A stretch of 64,000 bases of DNA from an uncultured Candidatus Saccharibacteria bacterium (GTDB lineage Bacteria; Patescibacteriota; Minisyncoccia; Portnoybacterales; UBA2143), in contig CAYOHI010000002.1 of the NCBI GenBank assembly GCA_964403725.1, forward strand, positions 21,644 to 85,643, read 5' to 3'. Below the pieces are notes generated by a model that made no database searches, was not told the DNA's origin, and saw nothing but the letters and a program-made list of their open reading frames with translations. Shown here in pieces: positions 34,238 through 57,543 of this stretch. Position 1 is the first letter of the stretch, and the number at the start of each line of letters is the position of its first letter. Position numbers and translations under genes: made by a program.

Positions 34238-34558
34238 ATGAAAAAGACAAAATTACCTCAAATCAAGAAAGACATTAAGGCTTTCTTAACGAGCGAAGAA
34301 GGAAGGATAAATAAAAAGAAAGTAGCCAAAGTGGCTATGGGTCTTTTGGCTTTAGGAGTTGGTTTAGCTGGTGCTATGAAGCCAGATCCAACTTCAGCTG
34401 CCTGTTCTCATGCCTCTCACGGCTCACACGGATCCCATAGTTCCCACGGATCCCACGGCTCTCACGGCTCACACGGTTCTCATGGAAGTCATGGATCACA
34501 TGGTAGTCACGGCTCACACGGCTCACACGGCTCACACGGATCTCATAGTAATTATTAA
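34238..34558 (+). CDS. His-Xaa-Ser repeat precursor peptide (HxsA-like) with 14 His-Gly-Ser repeats
   Basis: 106 aa: Lys-rich leader, hydrophobic VAMGLLALGVGLAGAM segment, then SHASHGSHGSHSSHGSHG...(HGS)n...SHSNY. Confidence 0.65.
   Translation: MKKTKLPQIKKDIKAFLTSEEGRINKKKVAKVAMGLLALGVGLAGAMKPDPTSAACSHASHGSHGSHSSHGSHGSHGSHGSHGSHGSHGSHGSHGSHGSHGSHSNY
34406..34549 (+). repeat. in-frame 9-nt tandem repeat (TCN CAY GGN)x~15 encoding the SHG repeats
   Basis: Direct reading shows tctcacggc / tcacacgga / tcccatagt / tcccacgga... Third positions vary, so units are non-identical at DNA level. Confidence 0.8.
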
Positions 34559-40360: not shown

Positions 40361-41605
40361 TTAGAAATTTATGAAATATATTTTAGAGGCGATTATTTCT
40401 TTAGTTTTATCTGTGAATTTTATATTTATTTTTTTAAAAAACATACTGTATTTATCTTTGAAGTATTCAGTATCTTTCTCTTTTTCTGCCAATACAGTGA
40501 CAACTAAATTATCCTTAGAAGTGATTAATTCTATGCCTGATTTGTCTTTGTATTTGTTTAAGAATTTTTCTTTGAATTTTAAGTTTCTCTGTATTTTTTC
40601 TTGGAATCCTTTTCTGCCTAGAGATAGTATGGTTAGAAGGGAGGCAACTGGCGAGATGGCAGTTCTAGTGGATAGTAGAGTGTTGTCGTTTCTGCTCAGA
40701 AAATCTATTGGCTCGGCGATCAGGTTTAATAGCTTTCTTCTGTGTAAGACTAATCCTGCTGGACAAGGGGTATGTCCAAATTTATGAAAATCAACGGCCA
40801 AGGCTTTGATTTCAGAATATTTGAAGGGAGAGAAACTGTTGTCTGTAAACGGATTAATCAAACCGCTCATGGCAGCATCTATCCAGCAAAAGAATTCTAC
40901 ATGTTTGTATTCTTTTTTGATTGCTCTGATAGTTTGTACTGTTTTCTCTATATTATCATCTGTGCCAGTTAGGGTGTATCCTAGGGTTAAGGGAATGATA
41001 AATCCTTTTATGTCTTTCTTGATTAATTTCTTTATTTTCTTTGATAAATCAAAACAATCTAGGTTCCACTCCTTTTCATTTACAGCAATGATTTCATTTT
41101 TAATGCCCACTATTTTGGCTGATTTTCTGATAGAATAGTGAGTTAAATTATTACTCAAGAATCTGATTTGATTAAAGTCTATCTTTTTCTTTCTTAGCCA
41201 GTCTCTTGCCAACCAGGCAGAAAATATGTTTCCTTCTGTTGAGCCGGTGGTTGAATAGCCTGTTAAGTCTCGGTCTTTGGCGTTATACAGATCTATCATT
41301 TTAAAAACTAATTCTTTTTCAATCGATTCATTGGTTGTTTCAGAATATTCTGATTCGGTTGTATTGCCCAATAGTACGGGATTGTGCTTGATTAGGTCTT
41401 GCCAAGCTTTGATAGATATCTGGGATGGGGTTGATACTAAATGGGCGATTTTAGCTGATTTTCTAAATTCTTTTAAATGTTTTTTAAGTTTTTGTATTTT
41501 AAGCTCTATATTCTTCTTTGTTTCTGGGTTTTTATTAAAATTAAATCCATCATTATTGTTGTGATTGGATTTTGGTAATAAGTTTTTTTTAGGTTGTTTT
41601 TTCAT
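40361..41605 (-). CDS. PLP-dependent group II decarboxylase-like protein
   Basis: GYSTTGSTEGNIFSAW and DFHKFGHTPCPAGLVL resemble the fold-type I decarboxylase Gly-rich and HK (PLP-Lys) regions. Confidence 0.45.
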   Translation of the reverse strand: MKKQPKKNLLPKSNHNNNDGFNFNKNPETKKNIELKIQKLKKHLKEFRKSAKIAHLVSTPSQISIKAWQDLIKHNPVLLGNTTESEYSETTNESIEKELVFKMIDLYNAKDRDLTGYSTTGSTEGNIFSAWLARDWLRKKKIDFNQIRFLSNNLTHYSIRKSAKIVGIKNEIIAVNEKEWNLDCFDLSKKIKKLIKKDIKGFIIPLTLGYTLTGTDDNIEKTVQTIRAIKKEYKHVEFFCWIDAAMSGLINPFTDNSFSPFKYSEIKALAVDFHKFGHTPCPAGLVLHRRKLLNLIAEPIDFLSRNDNTLLSTRTAISPVASLLTILSLGRKGFQEKIQRNLKFKEKFLNKYKDKSGIELITSKDNLVVTVLAEKEKDTEYFKDKYSMFFKKINIKFTDKTKEIIASKIYFINF

Positions 41606-41734: not shown

Positions 41735-42580
41735 ATGATGTTAAATATTAAAAAAATTAGGGTTAAGAAAATAATATCGCCGACAAATCTGGCTAATAGC
41801 GATTATGGCATAGATCCCTATGTCGGCTGCGAGATCGCCTGTTCTTACTGTTATGTCAGGTATATAGGCGATAGTAATGATAATAAGTGGGGCTCTTATG
41901 TTTTTGTTAAAGAAAATGCTCCTGATTTGATTATTGAAGATAAGGCTTATGATAATAAGACAATATCCATTGGAACCTTAACTGATCCTTATCAATTTGC
42001 AGAGAAAGAGTATGAAGTTACTAGAAAAATTTTGGAAAAATTAATTTCTTTTAACTCAGAGATCGCAATAATTACAAAATCTGATTTGGTTTTAAGAGAT
42101 ATTGATCTATTAAAGAAATTTAAAGATATTATTGTAGCTATTTCATTATCCTATGTTGATGACAAGATAAGGAAGGAATTAGAGCCAAAGGCTATAAGCA
42201 CAGAAAAGAGGATTAAAGTCTTAAAAGAATTGCATAGTAATGGGATAAAAACAGCTTTATTCATAGATCCAATATTTCCTGGCATTACTGACTGGAAAAA
42301 ACTTGTAAAATCTACCAGAAGTTATGTCGATAAATATCTATTTGAAAATCTGAATATCTATCCATCAACAGAAAATATTATCTTTAGCTTCCTTAAAAAG
42401 AATAAGCCAGAATTAATTGATGAATATAAGGAAATCTATTCAGACGAAAAGAAATATTGGCGAGGAATCGAGAGTGATATTAAGGATTATTGTGAAAAAG
42501 AAAAGATAAATTACGTTTCAACCATATTAAATTATTATAAATACTATCATTCAGATAGATTTTCTAGTAATAAGAAATGA
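41735..42580 (+). CDS. radical SAM protein, SplB/COG1533-like (DNA-photolyase-type radical SAM fold)
   Basis: SPTNLANSDYGIDPYVGCEIACSYCY (CxxxCxxC) near the N-terminus, as in SplB-family enzymes. Confidence 0.6.
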   Translation: MMLNIKKIRVKKIISPTNLANSDYGIDPYVGCEIACSYCYVRYIGDSNDNKWGSYVFVKENAPDLIIEDKAYDNKTISIGTLTDPYQFAEKEYEVTRKILEKLISFNSEIAIITKSDLVLRDIDLLKKFKDIIVAISLSYVDDKIRKELEPKAISTEKRIKVLKELHSNGIKTALFIDPIFPGITDWKKLVKSTRSYVDKYLFENLNIYPSTENIIFSFLKKNKPELIDEYKEIYSDEKKYWRGIESDIKDYCEKEKINYVSTILNYYKYYHSDRFSSNKK

Positions 42581-43452
42581 AAATAATATCAGGTTTTTCA
42601 AAAATAGAAGAAGTAAGTAATTTAATCAACAGAGGGGCTTCTGTTTTATTTTGTGGAATTTTATCAGAAGCTTTTAATAATCACAGGCCTAAATTGGCTC
42701 TTTTTAATTTGAAAGATTTAAATGAGTTAAGAAAAGCGACTAAAATAACGCATGATTTAAAAAAAGAAATATATGTTGTCGTTAATGCCATGGATTATGA
42801 AGACAAAGATAGAAAGAATGTTATTAAAGAGCTTAAGAAAATCGAGAGAATTAACGTTGATGGCCTAATAGTTTCAGACATCTCCATTCTCATGCTTATT
42901 AAAGAGAATGATATAAAAATTCCTGTGAGCTTGAGTAGCGTAGCTGCCTGTTATAATTCCATGGCTATTAAATTCTACGAGGATTTGAATGTCAGCTCCA
43001 TTATCCTGCCCCAGCAAATATCAGCTCCTGAAGTCAAGAAGATAAAAGAGTTAACCAATTTGCCCTTGGAAGTCTTTTATCGCAATAGCATGTTCAATAC
43101 CTGCCAGCAAGTGGATGGAATGTGTCTGTTATGCAATGTAATAGATCGCAAGAAATTCATTGTCAGGCCTAGAAGCAGTACAGATAGATTTAATGTTAAG
43201 TGCTTGAGGGGTAATAAGAATAATTTGGGCAGTTTAATCAAAGGCAATATTGATAGCGAGTTAAGATATATCTATGATACATATAATATAGGAGTGGAAT
43301 ATGTAAAAATGGGAGAAAGAGGATTGAAATCAGAATCTAAATACTTGGCAGTTGATATATTATCAAAGGTTATAAAAATACTAGGCAAGCATCCTAGTAA
43401 AAAAATGTTTATTAAAGAAGCAAAGGACATATGGAAAGAATTATATTGCTAG
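42577..43452 (+). CDS. peptidase U32-family protein (UbiU/RlhA-like large subunit candidate)
   Basis: N-terminus resembles the U32 'ELLAPAG..AGADAVYFG' start. EVFYRNSMFNTCQQVDGMC matches the U32 E-x-F...C-x4-G-x-C signature. Confidence 0.45.
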   Translation: MKIISGFSKIEEVSNLINRGASVLFCGILSEAFNNHRPKLALFNLKDLNELRKATKITHDLKKEIYVVVNAMDYEDKDRKNVIKELKKIERINVDGLIVSDISILMLIKENDIKIPVSLSSVAACYNSMAIKFYEDLNVSSIILPQQISAPEVKKIKELTNLPLEVFYRNSMFNTCQQVDGMCLLCNVIDRKKFIVRPRSSTDRFNVKCLRGNKNNLGSLIKGNIDSELRYIYDTYNIGVEYVKMGERGLKSESKYLAVDILSKVIKILGKHPSKKMFIKEAKDIWKELYC

Positions 43453-44195
43453 ATAAAGTTAAAAACTACCAAGAGATCAAAGATTTTGATCGTGTCTATC
43501 TTGGCAATGAATTTTGTCAGAATTTAATACCGACATTAAGCGATTTTAAATTACAAGTTAAAAAAATAAAGGATAAGGATTTTAGTTTTGTAACTCCGTT
43601 TGTAATTGATAAGAATATCAGTAAGCTGGAAAGGATATTCAAGTATTTAGACAAGGAATATGATGAGCCAGAGGTGATTGTAAATGATTTAGGAATACTA
43701 TATCTTCTTCACGAAAACTATCCAAAGATTAAAAAAGTATTTGGCAGAATATTGTATCCAAATATTTTCCTAAAGCCAAAAGATGAAATAATTAAGATTA
43801 AATCAAAATCTACAATTGAGTTGTTTAAGAAATATAATATAGATAGATATGAATTATCTGTTAAAAAATCAGATTTAACGCTTAATATTTTGGATAAACA
43901 AGTTAAATCAGAAAAAATGTTTAAGGATTTGAAATTCTCGCTCTATTATCCATACTTTCCAGTTTCAGTTACCAGAAAATGCAAGATGAGAAATCAGAAA
44001 GGCTTTGATGACTATGGAGCTTGCCAGCATGGATGTGCTGATAATCTATATGAAATAAAATACTCAGATTACCTTTGTCGGCACGCCATGGTTAATGATA
44101 AGATTTATATGAAAGGCAACGCATATTTTATCAAAAGCAAGAAACCAGCTAATATATCTAAATTAATATCCAGATTAGTTTTTCAATCAATGTAA
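43431..44195 (+). CDS. small U32-family protein (UbiV-like partner candidate)
   Basis: VYLGNEFC near the N-terminus (like UbiV VIYLGE..C). C-terminal C-x13-C-x3-C (CKMRN...GACQHGC) resembling the UbiV Cx12Cx3C [4Fe-4S] ligands. Confidence 0.4.
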   Translation: MERIILLDKVKNYQEIKDFDRVYLGNEFCQNLIPTLSDFKLQVKKIKDKDFSFVTPFVIDKNISKLERIFKYLDKEYDEPEVIVNDLGILYLLHENYPKIKKVFGRILYPNIFLKPKDEIIKIKSKSTIELFKKYNIDRYELSVKKSDLTLNILDKQVKSEKMFKDLKFSLYYPYFPVSVTRKCKMRNQKGFDDYGACQHGCADNLYEIKYSDYLCRHAMVNDKIYMKGNAYFIKSKKPANISKLISRLVFQSM

Positions 44196-44199
44196 TTTT

Positions 44200-45405
44200 A
44201 TGAAAATCATTAAAGATTTAGAAAAAATAGAAAAAAGGAATAAAGATTTCTTGCATTTGACAGCTAATGAGAATGTAATTTCAAATACGGCCAGGAAATA
44301 TCTATCTTCTGAATTAGGTAATAGGTATTTTTTAGGATCAGGGAAAAAAGGAATTGTTAGGAATAAAGCTTTGGAACTGTTGGGCTTGGAAGAAGTAGAT
44401 AAATTAGTAAATAAGGCTGAAGGATCTGCCAATAAGATACTAGGAGCATCACTGACATCTTTTAATCTTTTATCAGGAATCAATGCGATGACATCTCTAA
44501 TGCTAGCGATTTCCAAGCCAAATGATGTAATCATGACCTTGAACCCTGATTTTGGGGGTCACTTCATAACCAAGTCGATAATTGAAAGAATTGGACGCAA
44601 GCAGATTGTTACCCAGCACAAAGATAATGGAGAAATAGATATTAAAAAAACAGTAGACTTGTTAAACAAAAATAAATCTAAGGTATTGTACTTAGACAGT
44701 ATGTCAGTTTTAAATAGATTTCCATTGTCTGAAATTAGATCTATGATGAAAAATGAAGGTAGGTTAATTTTTGATGCAAGTCATACTATGGGATTGATTA
44801 TGGGAGGTCAATATCAATCTCCGCTAAAAGAAGGAGCTGATATTATTGTTGGTAACTCACATAAAACATTTCCCGGACCGCACAAGGCGATAATTGCTTT
44901 TAAGAATAAGAATTATGGAAAAAGAGTTATGTCTGTGATTAACAATTGTCTGATTTCTACTGTTCAAACGAGTAATCTAATAGCCTTGGCAATAACTGTT
45001 TTAGAAATGGAAAAGTTTGGCAAATCATATGCCAAGCAAATAATGTTGAATTCCCAAAAATTGGCAAAAGAAATAGAGAGCAAAGGCTATGACCTGATTA
45101 GATCTTCTAATAACAGCTATACTTATAACCATCAGATACATATTTCATTTAAAAATATTAAGGATTCAAAAACACTAATGGATAGTTTTTATAAAAACAA
45201 TATCAGTATTAATGTCATTAAACCTGGTCAGCCAAATTCATTTATAAGATTAGGAACTCAAGAGATTACTCGAAGAGGGATGAAGGAAAAAGATATGATA
45301 AAAATCGCTGAGTTTTTTGATAAATCTATTAAAAGAGAAAATATTAAAAACGAGGTCTTGAGGTTCAATAAAAAGTTTAAAAAGATACATTATTCTTTTG
45401 ATTAA
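44200..45405 (+). CDS. serine hydroxymethyltransferase-like PLP-dependent enzyme (fold type I)
   Basis: HLTANENVIS (cf. ELIASEN), DFGGHFITKS (cf. GGHLTHGS), NSHKTFPGP (cf. THKTLRGP, PLP-Lys). Confidence 0.55.
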   Translation: MKIIKDLEKIEKRNKDFLHLTANENVISNTARKYLSSELGNRYFLGSGKKGIVRNKALELLGLEEVDKLVNKAEGSANKILGASLTSFNLLSGINAMTSLMLAISKPNDVIMTLNPDFGGHFITKSIIERIGRKQIVTQHKDNGEIDIKKTVDLLNKNKSKVLYLDSMSVLNRFPLSEIRSMMKNEGRLIFDASHTMGLIMGGQYQSPLKEGADIIVGNSHKTFPGPHKAIIAFKNKNYGKRVMSVINNCLISTVQTSNLIALAITVLEMEKFGKSYAKQIMLNSQKLAKEIESKGYDLIRSSNNSYTYNHQIHISFKNIKDSKTLMDSFYKNNISINVIKPGQPNSFIRLGTQEITRRGMKEKDMIKIAEFFDKSIKRENIKNEVLRFNKKFKKIHYSFD

Positions 45406-46333
45406 GATGAATAAAATTAAGATTTTAACCCCGATTGATAATGTTGATGAATTTGAATTACTATCATCAGCTGGTGCTGATGAATTCTATTGCGGGGTCA
45501 TTATAAATGACAAAAAATATAACAGCGATAGAATTGGAAAACAGAAACAGGAAAATATTTCTGGGATCAGTGAATTGAAGAAATTAGTCAAAAAGATAAA
45601 AGATAATAAAAAAGATTTGTATCTAGTTTTGAACGCCCAATACTTATCTTCAAGAGATATAAATGAAGCTGGAAGAAGAATAGATGCCTTTAAGAAAATA
45701 GGAATAGATAATTATATAGTATCTAACTTGAATCTAATAGATAAGGTAAAGGATAAGGATATCAATATCATTATCAGTTCCTTTTTAGAAGCTAAAAATG
45801 TCGAAACGGTAAAATTTCTCAAGAAATTCAAGCCAAAGAGAATCATATTAGACAGGCAGATTACAGCCAGTGATTTAAAAGCCATAACATCTGAATTTCC
45901 AAGATTAGAATTTGAAACATTTATCATGGAAGCAGCATGCCGGAGCCTGGACAGTTACTGCAACCGACATATTTTCAACTATAAAAAACATACTTGTAGA
46001 GAAAATTTCAAAATAGACAACAAGAAAGGATTAACAAGGTCAGAATTGAATACGATTACTTCAAGATTAAAGATGCCGATTGTTAATTGCGGTATTTGCG
46101 CTTTATACCAATTTAGGAATTTAAATGTTGAATCGGTTAAGATAGTAGGGCGCGGCTATCCAACTAAATGGAAAGTTAAAAATGTTAAGCATGTCAGAGA
46201 TGCCTTGGGCGTATTAAATGACACTAAGAGCAAAAAAGAATATCATCAGAAATGCCTAAGTCTGTTTAAGAAAACTTATAATTTCCCTTGTAATAAAGAG
46301 TATTGCTATTACCCTCATTTTTTTAAAAATTAA
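45398..46333 (+). CDS. peptidase U32-family protein (second large-subunit candidate)
   Basis: ILTPIDNVDEFELLSSAGADEFYCGV start, FETFIMEAACRS...C and CGICALYQF Cys-containing segments. Confidence 0.45.
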   Translation: MIKMNKIKILTPIDNVDEFELLSSAGADEFYCGVIINDKKYNSDRIGKQKQENISGISELKKLVKKIKDNKKDLYLVLNAQYLSSRDINEAGRRIDAFKKIGIDNYIVSNLNLIDKVKDKDINIIISSFLEAKNVETVKFLKKFKPKRIILDRQITASDLKAITSEFPRLEFETFIMEAACRSLDSYCNRHIFNYKKHTCRENFKIDNKKGLTRSELNTITSRLKMPIVNCGICALYQFRNLNVESVKIVGRGYPTKWKVKNVKHVRDALGVLNDTKSKKEYHQKCLSLFKKTYNFPCNKEYCYYPHFFKN

Positions 46334-46337
46334 GATT

Positions 46338-47051
46338 ATGGAAAATGTCTTGTTAATCAACAGAATAGAAGATATTAAATTATTAACCGATAAGTATTCT
46401 CGTGTTTATCTTGGCAACGAGTTCTGTTCTAGATTGTTGCCGACTGAATCTGAGATAAAGAAGATATTAGCTGTAGTTAAGAAAGAAAAACTAAAATTAA
46501 CTATTGTCACATCATTTGCCGGTGAAGATGAATTAAAAAAGATAAAGAAGTTTTTTAGCATAGTTAATAAGCATGAGATGTTAGATGAAGTAGTTGTAAA
46601 TGATTATGGAATCTTGAATCTTTTAATCAATAAATATCCAAAAGTTAAATTGGTTGCTGGCCGGGCTCTATCAAGATTCTATAATTTTGATAAAAAGAAT
46701 TATTTGTATGATAAGATTGGAATAAGGAGGTTTGAATTCGATAGTAATCGCATTAATGAAGATGCTTTAAAAAATATATCTTCAGTAAAATTTTCCTATT
46801 ATCATCCCTATTCTATCCTGAATACGACGCGCTATTGTTCAGTAGTAGACAAGAAAAACAAAAGTAGTAATATTGGTATTCTAAAATGCAATCAGGAATG
46901 TCAAAAAATCGGTTCTCTAAAGCTGAAAAACAAGCTTATTAGAAACAAATTAACTCTTAGAGGAAATGCAATATTTATTAATAATAAAGAAGATAAGTTA
47001 AAAGTCATAAAGAATATTAAAGCGATCGATCGTTTAGTATTTCAAAATTAA
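46338..47051 (+). CDS. small U32-family protein paralog (second UbiV-like candidate)
   Basis: RVYLGNEFCSRLLP and C-x16-C-x3-C (RYCSVV...ILKCNQEC). Paralog of 43431..44195. Confidence 0.4.
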   Translation: MENVLLINRIEDIKLLTDKYSRVYLGNEFCSRLLPTESEIKKILAVVKKEKLKLTIVTSFAGEDELKKIKKFFSIVNKHEMLDEVVVNDYGILNLLINKYPKVKLVAGRALSRFYNFDKKNYLYDKIGIRRFEFDSNRINEDALKNISSVKFSYYHPYSILNTTRYCSVVDKKNKSSNIGILKCNQECQKIGSLKLKNKLIRNKLTLRGNAIFINNKEDKLKVIKNIKAIDRLVFQN

Positions 47052-47053: not shown

Positions 47054-47905
47054 ATGCCTAATATCTTAATAACAAATACTTGCAATCAGAAATGCCCATA
47101 TTGTTTCGCCCGAGATGAAATGAAGAATAAGAAAAAGCCGAATGAAATGTCTTTTGGTGATTTTAAAAAGATAATCAATCTTTTCAAGAAAGACGAAGAG
47201 CGATGCATCCGGTTAATGGGCGGAGAACCAACCCTTCATTCTAAATTTAAAGAGATTGTAGATTATTCCCTAAACGAAGGTTTTCTTGTCCAAATTTTTA
47301 CCAATGGTATTTTTAATAATGATATTTTAGAATTTCTTTTAAGCAAGAAAGATTTGATTAAATACAGTTTCAATCTTAATCATCCCAATAAATACGATAA
47401 AAAAACATGGGAATTGATCAATAGAAATATTAAAGAATTATCTGTCTTCAAGAAAGTGCTTGTTGGAGGAGTGGTGTCTGATAAGAATTTCAATATAGAC
47501 TACTTAGTAGAGATTGCAGATAAAAATAAGATAATAAATATTGCTTTGCGCCCAGATAATACTGTTGATAAGAATAAGGATATTGCAAAAACAATAATTA
47601 GAGAAATTAAAAAAGTTGATAAGAAAAAGTTTAATATTTGCTATGGTTGCGGCTTGTCAAAAGATGATTTAACGGATAATCAAATAAAGTTAATCGAAAG
47701 TCATTGTCGCCAAGAAGTGAAGTATGGATGTGATGGTAATAGCGGGCGTTTTGATATTGATGTGGATCTATCTGTCTTTCGTTGTTTCCCTTTATCAAAA
47801 TGGCATGTTAAAAAAATTGATGATTTTAATAATTTAGAAGAAATAGAAGAATACTTTAATAGTTTAATTAGGAACAATAAGGTTAATTGTGCTTTGATTG
47901 AATAA
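47054..47905 (+). CDS. radical SAM protein with C-terminal auxiliary Cys motifs
   Basis: ITNTCNQKCPYC (CxxxCxxC) and GGEPTLH. C-terminal CYGCG...C...YGCDGNSG. Confidence 0.7.
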   Translation: MPNILITNTCNQKCPYCFARDEMKNKKKPNEMSFGDFKKIINLFKKDEERCIRLMGGEPTLHSKFKEIVDYSLNEGFLVQIFTNGIFNNDILEFLLSKKDLIKYSFNLNHPNKYDKKTWELINRNIKELSVFKKVLVGGVVSDKNFNIDYLVEIADKNKIINIALRPDNTVDKNKDIAKTIIREIKKVDKKKFNICYGCGLSKDDLTDNQIKLIESHCRQEVKYGCDGNSGRFDIDVDLSVFRCFPLSKWHVKKIDDFNNLEEIEEYFNSLIRNNKVNCALIE

Positions 47906-48974
47906 TATGAAAATAGCTTTATTTTGCTCATCAAGAAATAGGATTCCATCAATCAAGACTGGCGGCACTGAACAGCCAATTTACTATTTGGCTAAAACTT
48001 TAGCTGAGCGTAAGCATGATGTCACGGTTTTTGCCGCTAAAGGATCAAGAATACCAAAAGTAAAAGTAAAGGAGATATCGCCTTTCGTGACTTTTGCTAA
48101 GCAAAAATTCTTAAATCTCCAAGAAAGGATTTCCAGCTTTTACGACTTGTCTGCCTTGGCTGATTTTTTCCACAATGAAGCTGATAAATATGATATCATT
48201 CAATTCAACAGCTATATATTCTATGAAATATTACCCTTTCTTAAATTAACTGAAAAGCCAGTAATAATTAGGATTAACTATCCTCATAATCTGATTTATC
48301 CATATATTAAAGATGAGTTGTTAAAGTATAAAAATGTTCATTACCTGCCAATATCTAAATTTATAAAATCAGCTATGCCAGACTTGAATTATTTGAATCC
48401 GATTTATCCAGGAATAGATATTAATGATTTTAAATACTCTGCAAAACACAAAGACTATTTACTATTCATAGGACGAGTTTGTCATAATAAAGGTGCTCAT
48501 CTGGCAATTGAAGTCGCTAGGAAAACTAATAATAAATTAATAATTGCTGGAAGGATTGATCAGGAAGACGGAGATAAATATTATAAAGAAGAAGTAGAGC
48601 CATATTTAAATGATAAAATACAATATATAGGAGAAGTGGATTTTAAAACTAAAGTAAAATTATACCGAGGAGCAATAACTACTTTATTCCCAATTCTCTG
48701 GGATGAGCCCTTTGGCAATGTTCCAATTGAATCCATGGCTTGTGGTACGCCAGTAATAGCGTTTGATAGAGCTGCCATGAAAGAATCAGTCAAAGATAAG
48801 CTTAGTGGGTTTTTAGTTAAAAATATCAGCCAAATGATTAAAAAGGTTAGTGAAATAGAGAAAATAGATAGAGAAAAAACAAGGAAGTGGGCAATTGATA
48901 ATTTTTCTAATGAAATAATAACTGATAAATATATTAAATCATACAAAAAGTTAAATGATAAAAAAACCGATTAA
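47898..48974 (+). CDS. family-1/4 glycosyltransferase (GT-B)
   Basis: EPFGNVPIESMACGTPVIA matches the GT4 E-x7-E motif. Confidence 0.7.
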   Translation: MNNMKIALFCSSRNRIPSIKTGGTEQPIYYLAKTLAERKHDVTVFAAKGSRIPKVKVKEISPFVTFAKQKFLNLQERISSFYDLSALADFFHNEADKYDIIQFNSYIFYEILPFLKLTEKPVIIRINYPHNLIYPYIKDELLKYKNVHYLPISKFIKSAMPDLNYLNPIYPGIDINDFKYSAKHKDYLLFIGRVCHNKGAHLAIEVARKTNNKLIIAGRIDQEDGDKYYKEEVEPYLNDKIQYIGEVDFKTKVKLYRGAITTLFPILWDEPFGNVPIESMACGTPVIAFDRAAMKESVKDKLSGFLVKNISQMIKKVSEIEKIDREKTRKWAIDNFSNEIITDKYIKSYKKLNDKKTD

Positions 48975-49809
48975 ATCCTTGCATTGGAGTGTAAACCGGA
49001 CTTGTAATTATAATTGCACCTACTGCGTGTCAGGCAACAGAAAGAGAAGTTTTTCTCCACATCCTAAGCTTTTCTTAAGTGAATTGGAAAAGCATCTTAA
49101 AGGAAGTTGGTTGATTCTTTTTACTGGTTCAGGTGAACCGTTCTTGACTCCAGATTTTCTTTCTATCGTAAACAAGCTTGTTAAGATGGGCCATAAAATT
49201 GGGGTAATAACTAATTTTTCATCATCATTAGACGACTTGGTAAAATTTTGCAAAATCACTAAAGGAAATTTACATGAGTTTGGCGCCAGCCTGCATCTTG
49301 AGAAAGTTGATGTGAATGAATTCATTGAAAAAGCTAAGGTCATTAATGATTTAACTGATGGTCTTCTAATAGTCAGGTCGGTAGCCGTTAAAGACAAAGT
49401 AAAAGAAATCTATAATATTGGTGAAAGATTTAAAAAAGAAGGTATAAAGTTTAGCTTGCAATTACAAAGAGTTCATGATCGAAAGTTAGGTGATAAAGAC
49501 AATCCCTATGTTAATTACAATAAGGAAGAAAAAAATATATTAAAGAGTTTAGGAAAGTTTCATTATAATAAGGATAATCTTAGATTTAAAGGCAAAAGGT
49601 GCTGGGCCGGTATCAAATATTTATCAATTAGCGAGGATGGTGAGGTTTGGAAGTGTCTTCCAGCAAGACGCTATAAGTTAAGCCAGGAAGATTATTTAGG
49701 CAATGTACTGGATAAAAGTTTTAAATTAAAAAAAGAACCTGACGTTTGTAGATACAATTATTGTTACTGTTTAGACGCATATATGAATAACATTGTCATT
49801 AACGATTAA
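48955..49809 (+). CDS. radical SAM protein (paralog A)
   Basis: VNRTCNYNCTYC (CxxxCxxC) and GSGEPFL. C-terminal CRYNYCYC. Confidence 0.65.
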   Translation: MIKKPIKSLHWSVNRTCNYNCTYCVSGNRKRSFSPHPKLFLSELEKHLKGSWLILFTGSGEPFLTPDFLSIVNKLVKMGHKIGVITNFSSSLDDLVKFCKITKGNLHEFGASLHLEKVDVNEFIEKAKVINDLTDGLLIVRSVAVKDKVKEIYNIGERFKKEGIKFSLQLQRVHDRKLGDKDNPYVNYNKEEKNILKSLGKFHYNKDNLRFKGKRCWAGIKYLSISEDGEVWKCLPARRYKLSQEDYLGNVLDKSFKLKKEPDVCRYNYCYCLDAYMNNIVIND

Positions 49810-50706
49810 TTGCATATGAATAAGATAGAAAATCACAAAAGAAAAAACAGGAGAAAACCGGTTAAATCTGTTAATTGGAATATCTCTGGAATTTGCAACT
49901 ACGATTGTAGTTATTGTGTCAGTAAGCCGGGTTTAAACAAGAAGATTTCTTATCCAGATCCATATGGATTTTTAGATATGTTTTCAAAAAAGTTAAAAGG
50001 AAGCTGGCGTTTTCATTTGGCTGGAAGCGGAGAACCTCTTTTGGTGCCTAATTTTTCAAAGATAGTTAGCGAACTAACAAAAATGGGACATGGAATTTAT
50101 ATCTCTACTAATTTTTCTTTGCCTTTAGAAAAACTTTTAGAAATTTGCAATGTTGCCAATAGGGATAATTTGTGGCTTTCTGTAAGTTTGCATCTTGAAT
50201 TTGCTGATGTTGATGATTTTTTTAAAAAAGCAATTGAAGTTAGAAAGAATATCGGGTATAGATTTTCAGCTACCTCAGTGGCTAGGAAAGATCAAGTATC
50301 AAAACTTAAAGAAATAGGTAATCGTTTTAGAAAAGAAAAAATTAGATTCATAATGCGACCAGAAAGGACTGTCAATAATACGGCTCAGCCATTTGTTGAT
50401 TATAGTAAAAAAGAATTGGATATCATTAGTAAATTCAACAAGAAAAAAGTTTTTTTTGATGAAAGTATTTCCAATTTAAAAGGTAAGCTGTGTCTGGCTG
50501 GAAGTAAATATTTCATAATTTCTGAAAAAGGTGATGTTTGGCGATGTTTTCCAGCAGCTAGACACAAAGATAAAAATGGTTATCTGGGCAACCTATTGAA
50601 GGGTGATTTTGAATTAAAGAAAGATCCTTCTGTTTGTCCTTATGAAAATTGCTATTGTCGATTGCCTATTACTAATAATTTGATTGTAGATGATATAGAT
50701 TTATGA
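49810..50706 (+). CDS. radical SAM protein (paralog A', tandem duplicate of the previous)
   Basis: SGICNYDCSYC and GSGEPLL. C-terminal CPYENCYC. Collinear similarity with 48955..49809. Confidence 0.65.
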   Translation: MHMNKIENHKRKNRRKPVKSVNWNISGICNYDCSYCVSKPGLNKKISYPDPYGFLDMFSKKLKGSWRFHLAGSGEPLLVPNFSKIVSELTKMGHGIYISTNFSLPLEKLLEICNVANRDNLWLSVSLHLEFADVDDFFKKAIEVRKNIGYRFSATSVARKDQVSKLKEIGNRFRKEKIRFIMRPERTVNNTAQPFVDYSKKELDIISKFNKKKVFFDESISNLKGKLCLAGSKYFIISEKGDVWRCFPAARHKDKNGYLGNLLKGDFELKKDPSVCPYENCYCRLPITNNLIVDDIDL

Positions 50707-51629
50707 ATGGAAAAACTAGAAAATACTTTAATACTTTAATAATTGAGCCGACTAATAGGTGTAATTTAATGTGTCCTATTTGTCCTACGGGTAGTAACAT
50801 TAATGAAAAATTAAAGGGAGACATGACTTTTCAACAATTCAAAAATATTATTAATTCAACTAAGCATTTTTTGAAATTTGTTAATTTATGGGGTTATGGC
50901 GAACCATTTTTAGCGCCGGATATAATGAAGATGATAAATTATACTGGAGAGAACGATATAAAAGTCAACGTTCATACTAATGGCAATGTTTTAAATAAAA
51001 AAACAATGGATCAGTTTAAGGAAAACCATAAGGTGGCAATTTCTTTTTCTGTAGATGGCCTTACTCGAGAATCATATAGTTATTACAGAAGAGGTGGTAA
51101 TCTTAAAAAAGTGCTAGATAATTTATCTTATTTAGTTAATTTAAAGAGGAAGCATAATTTATGCAATTTAGAGATTACTTGGCAGTTTCTAATAAATAAA
51201 GGGAATGAACATGAAGCGGAAAATGCCAGTGAATTTGCCAGGAAAATAGGAGTTGACTATTTCAAACAAAAAACAATTAACGTTAATGAGAAACATCCTG
51301 ATTACAATGATTTCATACCCAGAAGTAGTAAATACAAGAGAAAGAAAGAAACAATTATTAGTACTAAATCATGTATTTTTATTGATCCAGGAATGCCTAA
51401 TGTCTTTTGGGATGGTGATGTTTTGCCTTGTTGTAGATATTATAAAAAAAATAATTACATGGGCAATGTATTTAAAAAAGATTTAATAAAAATTTGGGAT
51501 AGTAAGGTATATAGAAAATTTAGAGATGATCATAAAAAAGGGACAAATAAATTATGCAACAGAAACTGTGGGTTTAGTAAAAAATCAGTAATCTATATTA
51601 ATGAAAAGAATTTTACTTTACGCAGCTAA
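50703..51629 (+). CDS. radical SAM/SPASM-like protein
   Basis: PTNRCNLMCPICP (CxxxCxxC). C-terminal Cys-rich region (CIFID...LPCCRYY...CNRNC). Confidence 0.7.
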   Translation: MNGKTRKYFNTLIIEPTNRCNLMCPICPTGSNINEKLKGDMTFQQFKNIINSTKHFLKFVNLWGYGEPFLAPDIMKMINYTGENDIKVNVHTNGNVLNKKTMDQFKENHKVAISFSVDGLTRESYSYYRRGGNLKKVLDNLSYLVNLKRKHNLCNLEITWQFLINKGNEHEAENASEFARKIGVDYFKQKTINVNEKHPDYNDFIPRSSKYKRKKETIISTKSCIFIDPGMPNVFWDGDVLPCCRYYKKNNYMGNVFKKDLIKIWDSKVYRKFRDDHKKGTNKLCNRNCGFSKKSVIYINEKNFTLRS

Positions 51630-53691
51630 TGGAGTTGGACTGGGTCATTTAAAGAGGGTTAGTTTGGTTGCAGAAAATTTTAAATCAGAAAAGATCGAGA
51701 TAATATTGGCAACTTCATCAAAAAAGCCTAATGCTTTTGGTAAATTCTATAACCACCTTATTAAATTACATCCAATTTCAAACAAAATAATAAAAAGTAG
51801 TTCAGAGAATTTAGATAAAAGACAGAAAAACAAAGAGATTCTTTTGAAATCTTTTAAGAAATTTAAACCAGACTTAGTAATAGCTGATTTTCTCCTGAAT
51901 TCTTGGGAATTTACTTTTCATCCTCTAAGAAGTGCTTTAGATAAGTTTAAAACTAGAGCTGTTTTTGTTTGGCGATTCAAAGATTTTAAGAATTTAGATG
52001 ATGACTTAGATAATAAGGAAGTCAGGAATAAATTAAGGTATTTTGATAAAATTGTAATCTCTCATGACGAAGATGAAATGAAATATCTCTTATCTTCAAA
52101 AGCCCTAAAGAAGATAAAAGATATTCCAAATGCTGAAATTTGCGGACCGATTATTCAAGATTTAGATAAGGATAAAATAAAAAAGACACGCTCAAGGCAC
52201 AAGATATCCAGTGAGGATTTCTTGATAACAGTTACTCTAGGAGCCGGAGGCGTACTAAAAGAAGGTAGTTGTGAGTCGGCTAAAAAAATTGTTGATAATT
52301 TTTTAGCCATTCATAATAGATTAATTAAAAATACCCCAAATCTAAAAGCAATAATCGTTACTGGTCCATATTTTAAAAATACAGAAAAGAAGAAATTTCC
52401 AAAATTAAAATTTGTTAAATTTGAAAAGAATCTACCAGAATTATTATCCCTATCTAATCTAGTTATTTCTGCTGCCGGGTATAATACTTGCAATGAGATT
52501 ATACAAGCAAAAACCCCAGCCATTTTGATTCCGTTATTAAGAGGCAGTAATGAGCAATTTGAAAGAGCCAAGTATCTAAGGAAAAAAGGAATAGCTCTGG
52601 TTCCTAGGAATAATTCTTCAGATGAACTTTTTAATTCAATAATGGATTCCAAAGCGAAAAAGAGGAAATCTTTCAATTTGAAACCAGGAAACAAGAAAGC
52701 AGCTGAAATAGCCTTAAATTTATTAAATGAAAACAATAGGGATTTAAAAGATAATCCATACTTGCCTGATGATAAGGATTTTTTTGATACTGATAAAGCA
52801 AAAATTAAGATAAATTTCAAAAAGAATAAATCCAAACCGAAATTCAGTATTGTTATTCCGACATATAATAAGAAAGAAAGCTTGGAATTCGTTCTGAAAA
52901 GTTTTTTTAATCAAGGTTATCCAAAATCAAAATATGAAATAATAGTCATAGATGACGGTAGTAATGATAATACTTTGGAAATGATAAAAAAACTCAAACC
53001 GACCTGTAATTTCAAATATATCTATTGGCCAAGAAAAAATATAAAAGTCAAAAAGGAGCACAGAAGATTCGCTAAATTCTATAACCGAGCCGGATTAGCC
53101 AGAAATATTGGCATTAAGTATTCAAAAGGAAATATCATTTTATTCAACGACTCAGATATTTTGACAGATAAGGATTGTTTAAAGAAACACAAGAAATATC
53201 ATAGCAAATATTCAAACATAGTAGTTCGTGGATATAGGATGCTTTTGCCAAAGGAATTCAATATTAAAAAAAATAATGATTTAACATTGATTAAGAAAAG
53301 CTCTGTCCAAGAGAAACCTAAAGATGAAACCAAGCTTCATTGTCGAATGTATGACTTATCAAAAGAAGGATGGCAAAGAATTGTTACTTGTAATTTATCA
53401 ATAAAGAAAAAGTATCTTGAAGAAGTAAATGGTTTTAGTAAGGATTTTGTTTTTTGGGGATTTGAAGATGTTGATTTGGGTTATAGATTAAAGAAATTAG
53501 ATTTAAAATTCATTTGGGATGAAAAGATAAAGGTATATCATATCTGGCATCCAAGAGAAGCGGGGAAAAAGAAAAAGGACTTGGAAGCTTTTAAAATAGG
53601 TGCTAATATTCTTTATAACAAGCATAAAGACTGGGAAATAATTAATATTTTTACAGACGTCATAAAACGACGTTTTGGTAAGTTATTATGA
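51601..53691 (+). CDS. bifunctional glycosyltransferase: N-terminal GT-B (MurG/GT28-like) fused to C-terminal GT2
   Basis: N-terminal AANGVGLGHLKR and ISAAGYNTCNEI (GT28 C-terminal-like). C-terminal FSIVIPTYNK..IIVIDDGSNDNT (GT2 DxD) and FWGFEDVDLGYR. Confidence 0.6.
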   Translation: MKRILLYAANGVGLGHLKRVSLVAENFKSEKIEIILATSSKKPNAFGKFYNHLIKLHPISNKIIKSSSENLDKRQKNKEILLKSFKKFKPDLVIADFLLNSWEFTFHPLRSALDKFKTRAVFVWRFKDFKNLDDDLDNKEVRNKLRYFDKIVISHDEDEMKYLLSSKALKKIKDIPNAEICGPIIQDLDKDKIKKTRSRHKISSEDFLITVTLGAGGVLKEGSCESAKKIVDNFLAIHNRLIKNTPNLKAIIVTGPYFKNTEKKKFPKLKFVKFEKNLPELLSLSNLVISAAGYNTCNEIIQAKTPAILIPLLRGSNEQFERAKYLRKKGIALVPRNNSSDELFNSIMDSKAKKRKSFNLKPGNKKAAEIALNLLNENNRDLKDNPYLPDDKDFFDTDKAKIKINFKKNKSKPKFSIVIPTYNKKESLEFVLKSFFNQGYPKSKYEIIVIDDGSNDNTLEMIKKLKPTCNFKYIYWPRKNIKVKKEHRRFAKFYNRAGLARNIGIKYSKGNIILFNDSDILTDKDCLKKHKKYHSKYSNIVVRGYRMLLPKEFNIKKNNDLTLIKKSSVQEKPKDETKLHCRMYDLSKEGWQRIVTCNLSIKKKYLEEVNGFSKDFVFWGFEDVDLGYRLKKLDLKFIWDEKIKVYHIWHPREAGKKKKDLEAFKIGANILYNKHKDWEIINIFTDVIKRRFGKLL

Positions 53692-57541: not shown

Positions 57542-57543
57542 AT

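What the first reader, a model, noticed from the sequence alone, without database searches (positions are those of the whole stretch)
42577..47051. Two large/small pairs of U32-family proteins (UbiU/UbiV-like) inside the radical SAM operon
42577..43452 and 45398..46333 look like U32 large proteins (AGAD-type N-terminus, E-x-F...C-x4-G-x-C). 43431..44195 and 46338..47051 are small paralogs with VYLGNEFC and C-x13/16-C-x3-C, resembling the UbiV 4Fe-4S ligand pattern. Characterised U32 members (UbiU-UbiV, RlhA, TrhP) are O2-independent hydroxylases acting on ubiquinone precursors or RNA nucleosides. Two such pairs bracketing an SHMT-like gene suggest O2-independent hydroxylation steps on an unknown small molecule or nucleoside in an organism unlikely to make quinones.
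Basis: partly seen in the sequence, partly recalled or inferred. Interest (0 to 1): 0.7.

Follow-up and report, generated by a model that had tools for sequence, protein, structure and literature searches.

The report
Two paired U32 iron-sulfur enzyme modules
Four adjacent genes encode two large-plus-small pairs of U32-type iron-sulfur proteins, the enzyme type thought to add oxygen to molecules without using O2; the small partners belong to a large, so far unannotated protein family, and the genes sit inside a giant radical-SAM gene island built around a histidine-serine repeat protein.

Summary
All four ORFs exist. L1 and L2 are clear Peptidase_U32 members (E 7e-25, 2e-23). S1 and S2 hit no Pfam or NCBIfam model, but profile-profile comparison (96.7%, E 3e-10), weak PF01136 hits in relatives and two fold searches (top hit U32 structure 5d88) place them as very divergent U32-fold proteins. 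They belong to an unannotated family of about 2,100 clusters (50% identity). Four Cys are conserved in 142-144 of 144 members, in the UbiV-type arrangement. In 80 genomes from many anaerobic bacterial and archaeal phyla, 52 of 74 small genes lie directly beside a large U32 gene. L2's Cys align with UbiU's four ligands, and L2-type proteins carry four more conserved Cys.

The two pairs are separable modules: L1-S1 travels with a radical SAM gene and a threonine-transaldolase-like gene, while L2-S2 is a core part of a Patescibacterial island. Hydroxylase activity is inferred only. Verdict: new variant of a known kind.

The parts
42577..43452 (+). L1, large U32 protein (291 aa), divergent and shortened
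   Evidence: PF01136 E 6.9e-25. E165-x-F and C176-x6-C183 present. By alignment it lacks the equivalents of L2 C200, C231, C234 and C303. C176, C183, C186 and C209 are conserved in the only relative found, P0057 at 76% identity.
43431..44195 (+). S1, small cryptic U32-like protein (254 aa); its start overlaps the end of L1 by 22 nt
   Evidence: No Pfam or NCBIfam hit. 31% identical to S2, E 1e-29. Carries all four family Cys: C29, C184, C198, C202.
44200..45405 (+). PLP enzyme of the SHMT fold, L-threonine-transaldolase-like (401 aa)
   Evidence: Fluorothreonine transaldolase model TIGR04506 280 bits against SHMT PRK00011 197 bits, both below their cut-offs. Best PDB match 7k34, 163 bits. Shares the stretches LTANEN, GLIMGG and GN[ST]HKT with 7k34 and lacks the YAEGxPGxRYY motif of SHMT. 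Linked to L1-S1 in contig L086.
45398..46333 (+). L2, large U32 protein (311 aa; alternative ATG start at 45407)
   Evidence: PF01136 E 1.7e-23. Family profile against E. coli UbiU: 99.4%, E 1.8e-21, with C181/C188/C200/C231 aligned to UbiU C169/C176/C193/C232. Extra conserved Cys at C32, C234, C298 and C303. AF2 model pLDDT 89.4, top PDB hit 5d88.
46338..47051 (+). S2, small cryptic U32-like protein (237 aa)
41735..42580 (+). Radical SAM protein (PA0069 / 'mobile pair B'-like), first gene of the operon; overlaps L1 by 4 nt
   Evidence: PF04055 E 3e-17; TIGR04470 204 bits, below its cut-off. Conserved directly upstream of L1 in L086 and L087.
40361..41605 (-). Group II PLP decarboxylase, histidine-decarboxylase-like; divergently transcribed
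   Evidence: PF00282; NF002748 histidine decarboxylase 151 bits against a cut-off of 305. Conserved beside the L1 module in L086 and L087.
32722..34173 (+). HxsB, His-Xaa-Ser system radical SAM/SPASM maturase; start of the island
   Evidence: TIGR03978 527 bits, above the cut-off of 370.
34238..34558 (+). HxsA4-type His-Xaa-Ser repeat protein (106 aa; hydrophobic N-terminal segment, then a long (SHG)n run)
   Evidence: NF038313 72.3 bits, above the cut-off of 55. Sequence. 9-nt tandem repeat of 14 copies at 34414-34539.
47054..53691 (+). Downstream operon genes: rSAM (47054), GT4 (47898), two STM4011-like rSAMs (48955, 49810), SPASM rSAM (50703), GT28C+GT2 fusion (51601)
   Evidence: Most of these genes are syntenic with Saccharibacteria locus L019.
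56648..62870 (+). Array of HxsC/HxsC4-like radical SAM genes (56648, 58266 with two rSAM domains, 60167, 61021, 61941) with a kinase gene at 57544
   Evidence: HxsC or HxsC4 is the best NCBIfam hit for each (166, 258, 121, 162 and 189 bits), all below the cut-offs. The same array follows the L-S pair in L019.

Best explanation
The four genes encode two separate two-subunit U32-type iron-sulfur enzymes. Each large subunit (L1, L2) is a true Peptidase_U32 TIM-barrel protein with the E-x-F...C-x6-C motif that is essential in TrhP and RlhA, and is probably the catalytic subunit. Each small subunit (S1, S2) belongs to a large, unannotated and very divergent branch of the same fold. It has lost the first Cys of the C-x6-C pair and apparently the Glu, and uses a Cys in the N-terminal YxGNEFC motif plus C-x(9-19)-C-x3-C, the same topology as UbiV. 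It probably binds its own [4Fe-4S] cluster and acts as the partner or electron-relay subunit. By analogy with UbiU-UbiV and TrhP1-TrhP2, each pair most likely performs an O2-independent two-electron oxidation, most probably hydroxylation of an electron-rich (hetero)aromatic carbon. L2-S2 is a conserved core tailoring enzyme of an expanded Patescibacterial His-Xaa-Ser island: HxsB, an HxsA4 repeat protein, at least 13 radical SAM genes, glycosyltransferases and a methyltransferase. L1-S1 is a lineage-specific add-on that works with a radical SAM enzyme, a threonine-transaldolase-like enzyme and a histidine-decarboxylase-like enzyme. Shown here: family and fold assignments, Cys conservation, gene pairing, modularity and the Hxs context. 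Inferred: Fe-S binding, heterodimer formation, hydroxylation, and the substrate (the HxS-repeat protein or something derived from it, or a nucleoside or small molecule).
For: L1 and L2 hit PF01136 at E 6.9e-25 and 1.7e-23. The L family matches UbiU at 99.4%, E 1.8e-21, with all four UbiU Cys ligands aligned (ligands from PMC6747719). The S family matches the L family at 93% and 96.7%, E 3.2e-10. 7 of 24 S members give weak PF01136 hits. The S2 and L2 models both have the U32 structure 5d88 as their top PDB match. S-family Cys are conserved in 144, 144, 142 and 144 of 144 sequences, C3-C4 spacing is x3 in 141 of 142, and there is never a Cys at -7 from C2. This matches UbiV's CXnCX12CX3C, whose first Cys lies outside the U32 domain. 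52 of 74 S genes are adjacent to an L gene on the same strand, often with overlapping stop and start codons, and 7 more have an L within three genes. In the window the junctions are -22 and +4 nt. Paired U32 genes that are both required are documented for UbiU/UbiV and YrrN/YrrO. Modularity. Hxs context. S domains are fused to a B12-rSAM-like region and to a methyltransferase-like region. In Dehalococcoidia and Bathyarchaeia the neighbours are FAD_binding_4, CCG/Fe-S and ETF proteins, which could be electron acceptors.
Confidence: 0.55

Rival explanations
1. The L/S pairs are Fe-S redox enzymes but not hydroxylases. They would catalyse another O2-independent reaction such as dehydrogenation, IspH-like dehydroxylation or hydration, or they would serve as an electron-transfer module for the many radical SAM enzymes around them.
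For: Hydroxylation has not been shown directly for any U32 protein, and the role of the clusters is unknown. The S subunit appears to lack the conserved Glu. L-type proteins carry four additional conserved Cys, enough for an extra metal site typical of electron relays. The pairs co-occur with ETF, FAD_binding_4 and CCG proteins and very often with radical SAM genes. A prephenate source is doubtful in Patescibacteria (my own knowledge).
Against: All three genetically characterised U32 systems are required for hydroxylations. L1 and L2 keep the E-x-F...C-x6-C motif essential in TrhP and RlhA. Radical SAM enzymes normally take electrons from flavodoxin or ferredoxin, not from TIM-barrel partners.
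Confidence: 0.25
2. They are peptidases, as the family name says. They would act as leader or processing proteases that cleave the HxsA4 repeat protein during maturation in this peptide-modification type island.
For: The island contains a precursor-like repeat protein plus SPASM-type maturases. Canonical HxsA undergoes N-terminal processing by an unidentified activity (PMC13128918). Some U32 proteins were reported to be collagenolytic, and the (SHG)n run weakly resembles collagen-like adhesins.
Against: Near-invariant four-Cys motifs typical of [4Fe-4S] sites occur in both subunits. No catalytic mechanism for U32 proteolysis is known. The L/S module is widespread in loci with no repeat-protein gene nearby. 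The fusions are to rSAM-like and methyltransferase-like regions, not to peptide-handling domains.
Confidence: 0.08
3. They are housekeeping RNA hydroxylases, functional equivalents of TrhP or RlhA that make ho5U or ho5C in tRNA or rRNA, and lie in this island by coincidence.
For: TrhP is the best NCBIfam hit for L1 and L2 (74 and 48 bits). The B. subtilis TrhP1/TrhP2 system is also a tandem U32 pair followed by a methyltransferase.
Against: The scores are far below the cut-off of 534. L1 and L2 (291 and 311 aa) lack the C-terminal domains of TrhP and RlhA. The genes are tightly packed, with overlapping or near-touching junctions, inside a biosynthetic operon. L2-S2 is syntenic with island genes in other Patescibacteria. 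L1-S1 was found in only one other lineage.
Confidence: 0.07
4. They are true UbiU/UbiV for anaerobic ubiquinone synthesis.
For: The large/small pairing and the Cys topologies resemble UbiU-UbiV.
Against: The UbiU model scores 66 and 45 bits against a cut-off of 440, and the UbiV-type model gives no hit for S. No UbiT and no other ubi, men or aro genes were found among the annotated genes of the window. The nearest relatives are Patescibacteria, and UbiUVT is described only in alpha-, beta- and gamma-proteobacteria.
Confidence: 0.02

Closest known systems
UbiU-UbiV (E. coli YhbU/YhbV), O2-independent ubiquinone hydroxylase heterodimer
   Same: Adjacent genes for a larger and a smaller U32 protein. 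L2's C181/C188/C200/C231 align with UbiU C169/C176/C193/C232. The S family has the UbiV topology: one N-terminal Cys in a YLG-E-x-x-C context plus C-x(n)-C-x3-C, with no C-x6-C pair.
   Different: They are not orthologs: scores are far below the equivalog cut-offs, and the S family shows no significant match to UbiV. By position, the S family lacks the Glu that UbiV keeps 15 residues before its second Cys (my reading of the sequences). L-type proteins have four extra conserved Cys. There is no UbiT and no quinone context. The hosts are Patescibacteria and many anaerobic bacterial and archaeal phyla rather than Proteobacteria.
TrhP1/TrhP2 (B. subtilis YrrO/YrrN), TrhP and RlhA: RNA pyrimidine C5 hydroxylation factors
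   Same: U32 domain with E-x-F...C-x6-C. The B. subtilis system is a tandem pair in which both genes are required, in an operon with a methyltransferase. TrhP is the best-scoring NCBIfam model for L1 and L2.
   Different: L1 and L2 lack the C-terminal domains of TrhP and RlhA. YrrN is still a recognisable Pfam U32 protein, whereas S1 and S2 are not. The genomic context here is a biosynthetic or maturation island, not RNA-modification genes.
Mk0906 (PDB 5d88), U32 protein of Methanopyrus kandleri
   Same: It is the top structural match for both the S2 and L2 models.
   Different: Only 12-13% sequence identity, and its function is unknown.
HXS antiphage system (HxsA-D; PMC13128918)
   Same: HxsB and an HxS-repeat protein (HxsA4 type) pass curated cut-offs, and several HxsC-like radical SAM genes are present.
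   Different: Canonical systems have four genes, are 99.7% from Pseudomonadota, have five repeats plus a peptidoglycan-binding domain in HxsA, and have no U32 genes. Here the system is an island of about 30 kb with roughly 25 genes, a long (SHG)n run, five HxsC-like genes (six rSAM domains), glycosyltransferases, PLP enzymes and two U32 pairs.
L-threonine transaldolases (fluorothreonine transaldolase; ObiH, PDB 7k34 by my recollection)
   Same: These are the best HMM and PDB matches for the gene between the two pairs, and signature stretches are shared.
   Different: The score is below the equivalog cut-off (280 against 650). An archaeal-type SHMT scores nearly as well (152 against 163 bits). 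Activity is untested.

Membership tests
Peptidase_U32 (Pfam PF01136) | Significant match to the PF01136 HMM above the gathering score (22.4 bits) | tested here: met
   Met for L1 (88.1 bits) and L2 (83.6 bits). Not met for S1 and S2, which give no hit at E<=1. Only 7 of 24 S-family members give weak hits, the best at E 0.0078.
Peptidase_U32 (Pfam PF01136) | TIM-barrel fold like the only solved member (5d88) | tested here: met
Peptidase_U32 (Pfam PF01136) | E-x-F...C-x6-C motif (Glu and both Cys are essential in TrhP and RlhA) | tested here: met
   L1 has E165-V-F and C176-x6-C183; L2 has E173-T-F and C181-x6-C188. Conserved across 68 L genes: C181 68/68, C188 62/68, E173 53/68. Not met by S1, S2 or the S family, where the residue at -7 from C2 is Tyr or Phe in 113 of 144 and never Cys.
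Peptidase_U32 (Pfam PF01136) | Homology of the small proteins to U32 domains by profile methods | tested here: met
   hhalign of the S family against the L family: 93%, E 2.6e-7, and 96.7%, E 3.2e-10 over 139 columns. The match covers only the N-terminal two thirds of the proteins.
UbiU (NCBIfam NF047963) | Score above the equivalog cut-off (440 bits) | tested here: not met
   L1 scores 66.3 bits and L2 45.5 bits.
UbiU (NCBIfam NF047963) | Four Cys ligands in the pattern CX6CX16CX38C | tested here: met
   L2 has C181-x6-C188-x11-C200-x30-C231, aligned column for column with UbiU C169/C176/C193/C232. L1 keeps only the first two and has C186 and C209 at non-equivalent positions.
UbiU/UbiV pathway | Co-occurrence with ubiT and other ubi genes; proteobacterial host | tested here: not met
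   No SCP2/UbiT and no ubi, men or aro hits among the annotated genes of the window. The nearest relatives are Patescibacteria. The whole genome was not available.
UbiV (NCBIfam NF011991) | Match to the UbiV-type model or to E. coli UbiV | tested here: not met
   No S-family member hits NF011991 at E<=1. hhalign of the S profiles against UbiV gives E 0.24 and 0.0068, with probabilities of 0.3% and 5.6%.
UbiV (NCBIfam NF011991) | CXnCX12CX3C ligand topology with the first Cys far upstream, outside the U32 domain | tested here: met
   S2 has C30...C167-x16-C184-x3-C188 and S1 has C29...C184-x13-C198-x3-C202. Family-wide conservation is 142-144 of 144, and the last spacing is x3 in 141 of 142. 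The non-significant alignment places YLGEAVC39 of UbiV on YFGNEFC30.
UbiU-UbiV type complex | Heterodimer in which each subunit binds one [4Fe-4S] cluster | not testable with these tools
   Only gene adjacency is available: 52 of 74 S genes are adjacent to L, and 59 of 74 have L within three genes. No multimer prediction and no model coordinates were available, and no L-S fusions were found.
TrhP / RlhA | Equivalog score (534 bits) and the characteristic C-terminal domains | tested here: not met
   L1 scores 73.6 and L2 47.7 bits, matching only positions of about 2-218 of the 449-position model. Pfam finds no domain other than PF01136.
His-Xaa-Ser (HXS) system (context) | HxsB radical SAM maturase and a His-Xaa-Ser repeat protein | tested here: met
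   TIGR03978 scores 527 bits (cut-off 370) for the gene at 32722-34173. NF038313 HxsA4 scores 72.3 bits (cut-off 55) for the gene at 34238-34558.
His-Xaa-Ser (HXS) system (context) | HxsC maturase above its cut-off, and the four-gene HxsD-B-C-A architecture | tested here: not met
   Five genes have HxsC or HxsC4 as their best hit, but all score below the cut-offs (189 against 268; at most 258 against 500). The architecture is about 25 genes, not four. HxsD was not searched for.
L-threonine transaldolase (TIGR04506) for the middle gene | Equivalog score (650 bits) and closer similarity to transaldolases than to SHMT | tested here: inconclusive
   280 bits is below the cut-off but above the SHMT model (197 bits, itself below its cut-off of 335). 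In the PDB, 7k34 scores 163 bits, an archaeal-type SHMT 152 bits and bacterial SHMTs about 100 bits. Motif comparison favours the transaldolase side.

The most novel reading that the evidence does not exclude
The L/S U32 pairs are O2-independent oxidases or hydroxylases whose substrate is the ribosomally made HxS-repeat protein, for example the imidazole rings of its many His residues, or a small molecule cut out of it. They would act within an expanded, heavily decorated His-Xaa-Ser system of an episymbiotic Patescibacterium. This would be the first U32 enzyme acting on a protein or peptide. Because these organisms usually lack the shikimate pathway, it might also use an oxygen donor other than prephenate. 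It would further define the S family (about 2,100 clusters) as the general UbiV-like partner subunit of a pan-anaerobe class of two-subunit U32 enzymes.
Probability: 0.12. Interest if true: 0.9.

Novelty: new variant of a known kind. Interest (0 to 1): 0.66.

Why it matters
U32 proteins are the only enzyme family so far linked to hydroxylation that takes its oxygen from an organic donor (prephenate). Only three systems are genetically characterised, none has been reconstituted, and most subfamilies have no known role. This locus shows three things. First, there is a large hidden branch of the fold that Pfam and NCBIfam do not detect, and it behaves as the dedicated small partner of a distinct large U32 type across many anaerobic bacterial and archaeal phyla. 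The published 12-subfamily picture, which was built from Pfam hits, is therefore incomplete. Second, the large partner carries four extra conserved Cys, which hints at a third metal site. Third, such pairs are built into radical-SAM-rich maturation islands, here an unusually expanded His-Xaa-Ser system. The canonical four-gene form of that system was shown in 2026 to be an antiphage defence with unresolved modification chemistry. The small proteins (237-311 aa), with clear operon partners, would be good targets for the first in vitro reconstitution of U32 chemistry, and for asking what supplies the oxygen in organisms that probably cannot make prephenate.

Tried and rejected
(1) Direct HMM assignment of S1 and S2 against Pfam, NCBIfam and PADLOC gave nothing.

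(2) Sequence-profile searches of the PDB with the S profiles (A1, A3) and the L profile (A2) found no U32 entry. Only the fold searches found 5d88.

(3) Linking the S family specifically to E. coli UbiV by hhalign was not significant. I had no search left to build a UbiV family profile.

(4) The AFDB50 fold library was not available, so predicted UbiV structures could not be compared.

(5) Model coordinates are not exposed, so the geometry of the four Cys could not be measured.

(6) The word-indexed homolog search badly underestimated the S family (23 hits) and L1 (2 hits). The pattern scan of genomes and the exhaustive HMM search corrected this for S.

(7) I looked for the SHMT-like gene next to L/S in 80 other loci and found none. 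I therefore rejected the idea that 'U32 pairs bracket an SHMT' is a conserved unit.

(8) I looked for L-S Rosetta-stone fusions and found none.

(9) I looked for HxS-repeat ORFs near S in 87 loci and found none within 10 kb. The Hxs link is therefore shown only for the window, for its Patescibacterial synteny partners through the HxsC-like arrays, and for two loci with HxsB homologs.

(10) Source-collection names gave no organism for the window's own proteins, and Rfam found only tRNAs.

(11) I considered and rejected true UbiU/V, TrhP/RlhA orthology and a simple recent tandem duplication of one pair. L1/L2 share 28% and S1/S2 share 31% identity, whereas L2 and S2 each have relatives at 47-49% in other organisms.

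Full report
OBSERVATION. The four ORFs are at the stated coordinates: L1 42577-43452 (291 aa), S1 43431-44195 (254 aa), L2 45398-46333 (311 aa from a TTG start; public gene calls use the ATG at 45407) and S2 46338-47051 (237 aa). A 401-aa SHMT-fold gene lies between the pairs at 44200-45405. Junctions from the upstream radical SAM gene to the downstream one are -4, -22, +4, -8, +4 and +2 nt. Promoter-like and terminator-like motifs inside the stretch are not above chance. I therefore read this as one tightly packed operon. The quoted motifs are present, with small corrections: L1 has GAS rather than AGAD, and L2 has C-x6-C without the Gly. S1/S2 and L1/L2 are paralogs (31%, E 1e-29; 28%, E 6e-24), while L and S show no BLASTP similarity to each other. 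The same cluster occurs on four independent metagenome contigs.

THE SMALL-SUBUNIT FAMILY. The word-indexed search found only 23 relatives. A pattern scan of one genome per species found 109. An exhaustive HMM search of 1.84 billion representatives found 2,116 at E<=1e-3 and 564 at E<=1e-30. Hosts include Saccharibacteria and other Patescibacteria, Omnitrophota, Planctomycetes, Dehalococcoidia, Thermodesulfobacteriota, Acidobacteria, Bathyarchaeia, Nano-, Woese- and Hadarchaeota, Methanosarcinales and cultured Motiliproteus. In 144 diverse members the four Cys are conserved in 144, 144, 142 and 144 sequences. The C3-C4 spacing is x3 in 141 of 142, C2-C3 is mostly x16-18, and there is never a Cys seven residues before C2. 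This is the arrangement described for UbiV (CXnCX12CX3C, with the first Cys far upstream and outside the U32 domain; PMC6747719) and not the canonical CX6CX15CX3/4C. G26, E84, G108 and R232 are also invariant, and Y24, E28, N88, D89, R109, R131, E133 and D135 are nearly so. By position relative to C2, the S family has Phe-Ser where L proteins and UbiV have the Glu of E-x-F. This is my reading of the sequences and is not based on an alignment. Despite the shared topology, the S family does not significantly match E. coli UbiV or the UbiV-type NCBIfam model. It works like UbiV on paper, but membership in the UbiV family is not established.

THE LARGE SUBUNITS. The L-family profile matches E. coli UbiU at 99.4% (E 1.8e-21), and L2 C181/C188/C200/C231 fall on UbiU's experimentally defined ligands C169/C176/C193/C232. 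Across 68 diverse L genes these Cys are conserved in 68, 62, 67 and 62 sequences. Four more are also conserved: C234 (62), C298 (66), C303 (66) and C32 (55). UbiU lacks these, and together they could form an additional metal site (inference). L1 is atypical. It keeps E165-x-F and C176-x6-C183 but lacks the equivalents of C200, C231, C234 and C303. Its other Cys (C186, C209) are conserved in the single relative found (76% identity). Scores against the UbiU and TrhP equivalog models are far below their cut-offs, so neither L protein is an ortholog of a characterised enzyme.

PAIRING. In the 80 loci, 52 of 74 S genes have an L gene directly adjacent on the same strand (mostly L then S, often with overlapping stop and start codons). 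Seven more have an L within three genes, and 12 have none in the fetched DNA. Some genomes carry two or three pairs (L038, L057, L063, L072). No L-S fusion exists among the sequences examined. S domains are fused to a B12-radical-SAM-like N-terminal region (L070, P0110) and to a methyltransferase-like C-terminal region (P0079). Two precedents exist in which both members of a U32 pair are needed: UbiU-UbiV, a heterodimer with one [4Fe-4S] cluster per subunit, and B. subtilis YrrO/YrrN.

TWO MODULES, NOT ONE UNIT. A contig from a related organism (L1 ortholog at 76% identity) carries the PLP decarboxylase, the radical SAM gene, L1, S1 and the SHMT-like gene in the same order, but no L2-S2. Conversely, Saccharibacteria loci L019 and L007 are syntenic with the window's island (methyltransferase, rSAM, GT4, rSAM, GT28/GT2, TsaD-like, YrdC-like, L, S, rSAM, HxsC-like array) with a single L-S pair and no L1-S1-transaldolase block. 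The SHMT-like gene is absent from all 80 loci. It scores higher on the fluorothreonine-transaldolase model than on the SHMT model (280 against 197 bits, both below cut-off). Its best PDB match is 7k34 (163 bits), which I recall as the threonine transaldolase ObiH, just ahead of an archaeal-type SHMT (152 bits). It shares LTANEN, GLIMGG and GN[ST]HKT with 7k34 and lacks SHMT's YAEGxPGxRYY. It is therefore probably a beta-hydroxy-amino-acid-forming transaldolase, though this is unproven.

From about 32.7 to 62.9 kb the window holds at least 13 radical SAM genes. The first gene is HxsB (527 bits, cut-off 370). The next is a 106-aa protein with a hydrophobic N-terminal segment and a long (SHG)n run that passes the HxsA4 model (72 bits, cut-off 55). 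Five genes at the far end have HxsC or HxsC4 as their best hits, all below cut-off. The His-Xaa-Ser system was shown in 2026 to be an antiphage defence. In it, HxsB, HxsC and HxsD mature HxsA, with N-terminal processing and a +8 Da modification of unresolved chemistry. It is 99.7% restricted to Pseudomonadota and more than 99.8% of systems have four genes, with no U32 component (PMC13128918). The island here is a very different, expanded form. It adds glycosyltransferases, a methyltransferase, a B12-radical SAM protein, a QueC-like protein, a kinase, a second divergent TsaD-like plus YrdC-like pair, PLP enzymes and the U32 pairs. The nucleoside phosphorylase, APRT-like PRTase and HD phosphohydrolase may point to a nucleoside substrate, but they could equally recycle the 5'-deoxyadenosine made by so many radical SAM enzymes (inference). 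The decarboxylase's best hit is histidine decarboxylase (151 bits, below cut-off), which is suggestive next to a His-rich repeat protein.

OTHER CONTEXTS OF THE L/S MODULE. Elsewhere the commonest neighbours are SPASM-type radical SAM genes (21 loci) and B12-radical SAM genes (15 loci). In Dehalococcoidia and Bathyarchaeia there are operons with up to three FAD_binding_4 paralogs, a CCG/4Fe-4S protein and an ETF subunit. The module is therefore a portable redox tailoring unit, not tied to one pathway.

MECHANISM AND CONFIDENCE. The best-supported reading (0.55) is two heteromeric U32 Fe-S enzymes that carry out O2-independent oxidative tailoring, probably hydroxylation. L would be catalytic and S a UbiV-like cluster-bearing partner. 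Fold, family, Cys conservation, pairing, modularity and context are shown here. Cluster binding, complex formation, the reaction and the substrate are inferred. The main rival (0.25) is a different redox reaction or an electron-relay role. Protease (0.08), housekeeping RNA hydroxylase (0.07) and true UbiU/V (0.02) are less likely. A specific difficulty for the hydroxylase model is that the only known oxygen donor, prephenate (PMC10990095), needs a pathway that Patescibacteria usually lack. That is my own knowledge, and it could not be tested in a 64-kb window. No ubi, men or aro genes were seen among the annotated genes of the window, but this covers only part of the genome.

NOVELTY. The system is a new variant of a known kind: the two-subunit U32 Fe-S enzyme typified by UbiU-UbiV. 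What is new is the unannotated small-subunit family, the extra Cys set in the large subunit, the very broad distribution among anaerobes, and the embedding in an expanded His-Xaa-Ser island. The published U32 classification was built from Pfam U32 hits and so cannot contain the S family.

Noticed in passing
window 34238-34558 (+), with 32722-34173 (+) and 56648-62870 (+): A 106-aa His-Xaa-Ser repeat protein (HxsA4 model passed) with a long (SHG)n run encoded by a 9-nt tandem repeat of 14 copies. It follows a bona fide HxsB gene, and five HxsC/HxsC4-like radical SAM genes lie about 22 kb downstream. This is a Patescibacterial, roughly 25-gene version of a system otherwise described as four genes in Pseudomonadota with antiphage function.
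   Followed up: partly
window 53688-55306 (+), compared with 6254-7213 (-): The window has a typical TsaD (PF00814, 319 bits) at 6254-7213 and a second, divergent TsaD/HypF-Kae1-like protein (116 bits) next to a YrdC/Sua5-like protein inside the island. The pair is conserved directly upstream of L-S in Saccharibacteria loci L019 and L007. It could be a split carbamoyl- or threonylcarbamoyl-transferase used for tailoring rather than for t6A synthesis.
   Followed up: partly
window 58266-60170 (+): A 634-aa protein made of two tandem radical SAM domains, both HxsC/HxsC4-like. A 631-aa counterpart exists in L019 (893 bits).
   Followed up: no
window 34572-35441 (+): A 289-aa protein with an N-terminal hydrophobic segment and many Cys, directly after the HxsA4 gene. 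It has no Pfam, NCBIfam or PADLOC hit, and no homolog was detected in the 80 loci.
   Followed up: no
window 36309-41605 (-): A divergent six-gene operon: histidine-decarboxylase-like PLP enzyme, DeoD-type nucleoside phosphorylase, APRT-like PRTase, HD/YfbR-like phosphohydrolase, QueC-like PP-loop protein (weak QatC similarity) and a B12-radical SAM methyltransferase-like protein. It may handle a nucleoside or base intermediate, or it may salvage 5'-deoxyadenosine from the many radical SAM enzymes.
   Followed up: partly
window 22234-32515 (+): A type IV pilus gene set (PilM, PilO, two T2SSE ATPases, a T2SSF platform protein, an A24 prepilin peptidase) ends just before the island. GC content is about 0.29-0.33 from 32 kb onward, against about 0.33-0.39 before.
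   Followed up: no
L014, L020, L032, L033, L036, L037, L040 and others (Dehalococcoidia, Bathyarchaeia, Hadarchaeota): Operons with up to three paralogous FAD_binding_4 proteins of about 520 aa directly upstream of L-S, often with a CCG/4Fe-4S protein and an ETF subunit nearby. This may be a dedicated electron-acceptor system for the U32 pair.
   Followed up: partly
L070:3132-6845 (+), P0110, P0079: The small-subunit domain occurs as a fusion. In 1,220-1,237-aa proteins it follows a B12-radical-SAM-like N-terminal region (CxxxCxxC at residue 190). In a 481-aa protein it precedes a SAM-methyltransferase-like C-terminal region.
   Followed up: partly
L011, L015, L028, L041, L045 (mostly Thermodesulfobacteriota/Deltaproteobacteria MAGs): Small-subunit genes with no large U32 gene in the locus. 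They are preceded by a conserved set: an LPG_synthase_TM-family membrane protein, a GT2 glycosyltransferase of about 227 aa and an EutQ-like cupin. This suggests a membrane-lipid or glycan context and a partner-independent role.
   Followed up: no
L038 (Omnitrophota), also L057, L063, L072: Single loci carry two or three L-S pairs (three in L038; three L genes before one S in L072). Multiplication of the module within one cluster is therefore not unique to the window.
   Followed up: no
window 18669-18743 (-) and 16581-18710 (-): A tRNA gene overlaps the 5' end of the mechanically called RecG-like ORF (TTG start at 18710). The true start of that gene is probably further downstream.
   Followed up: no
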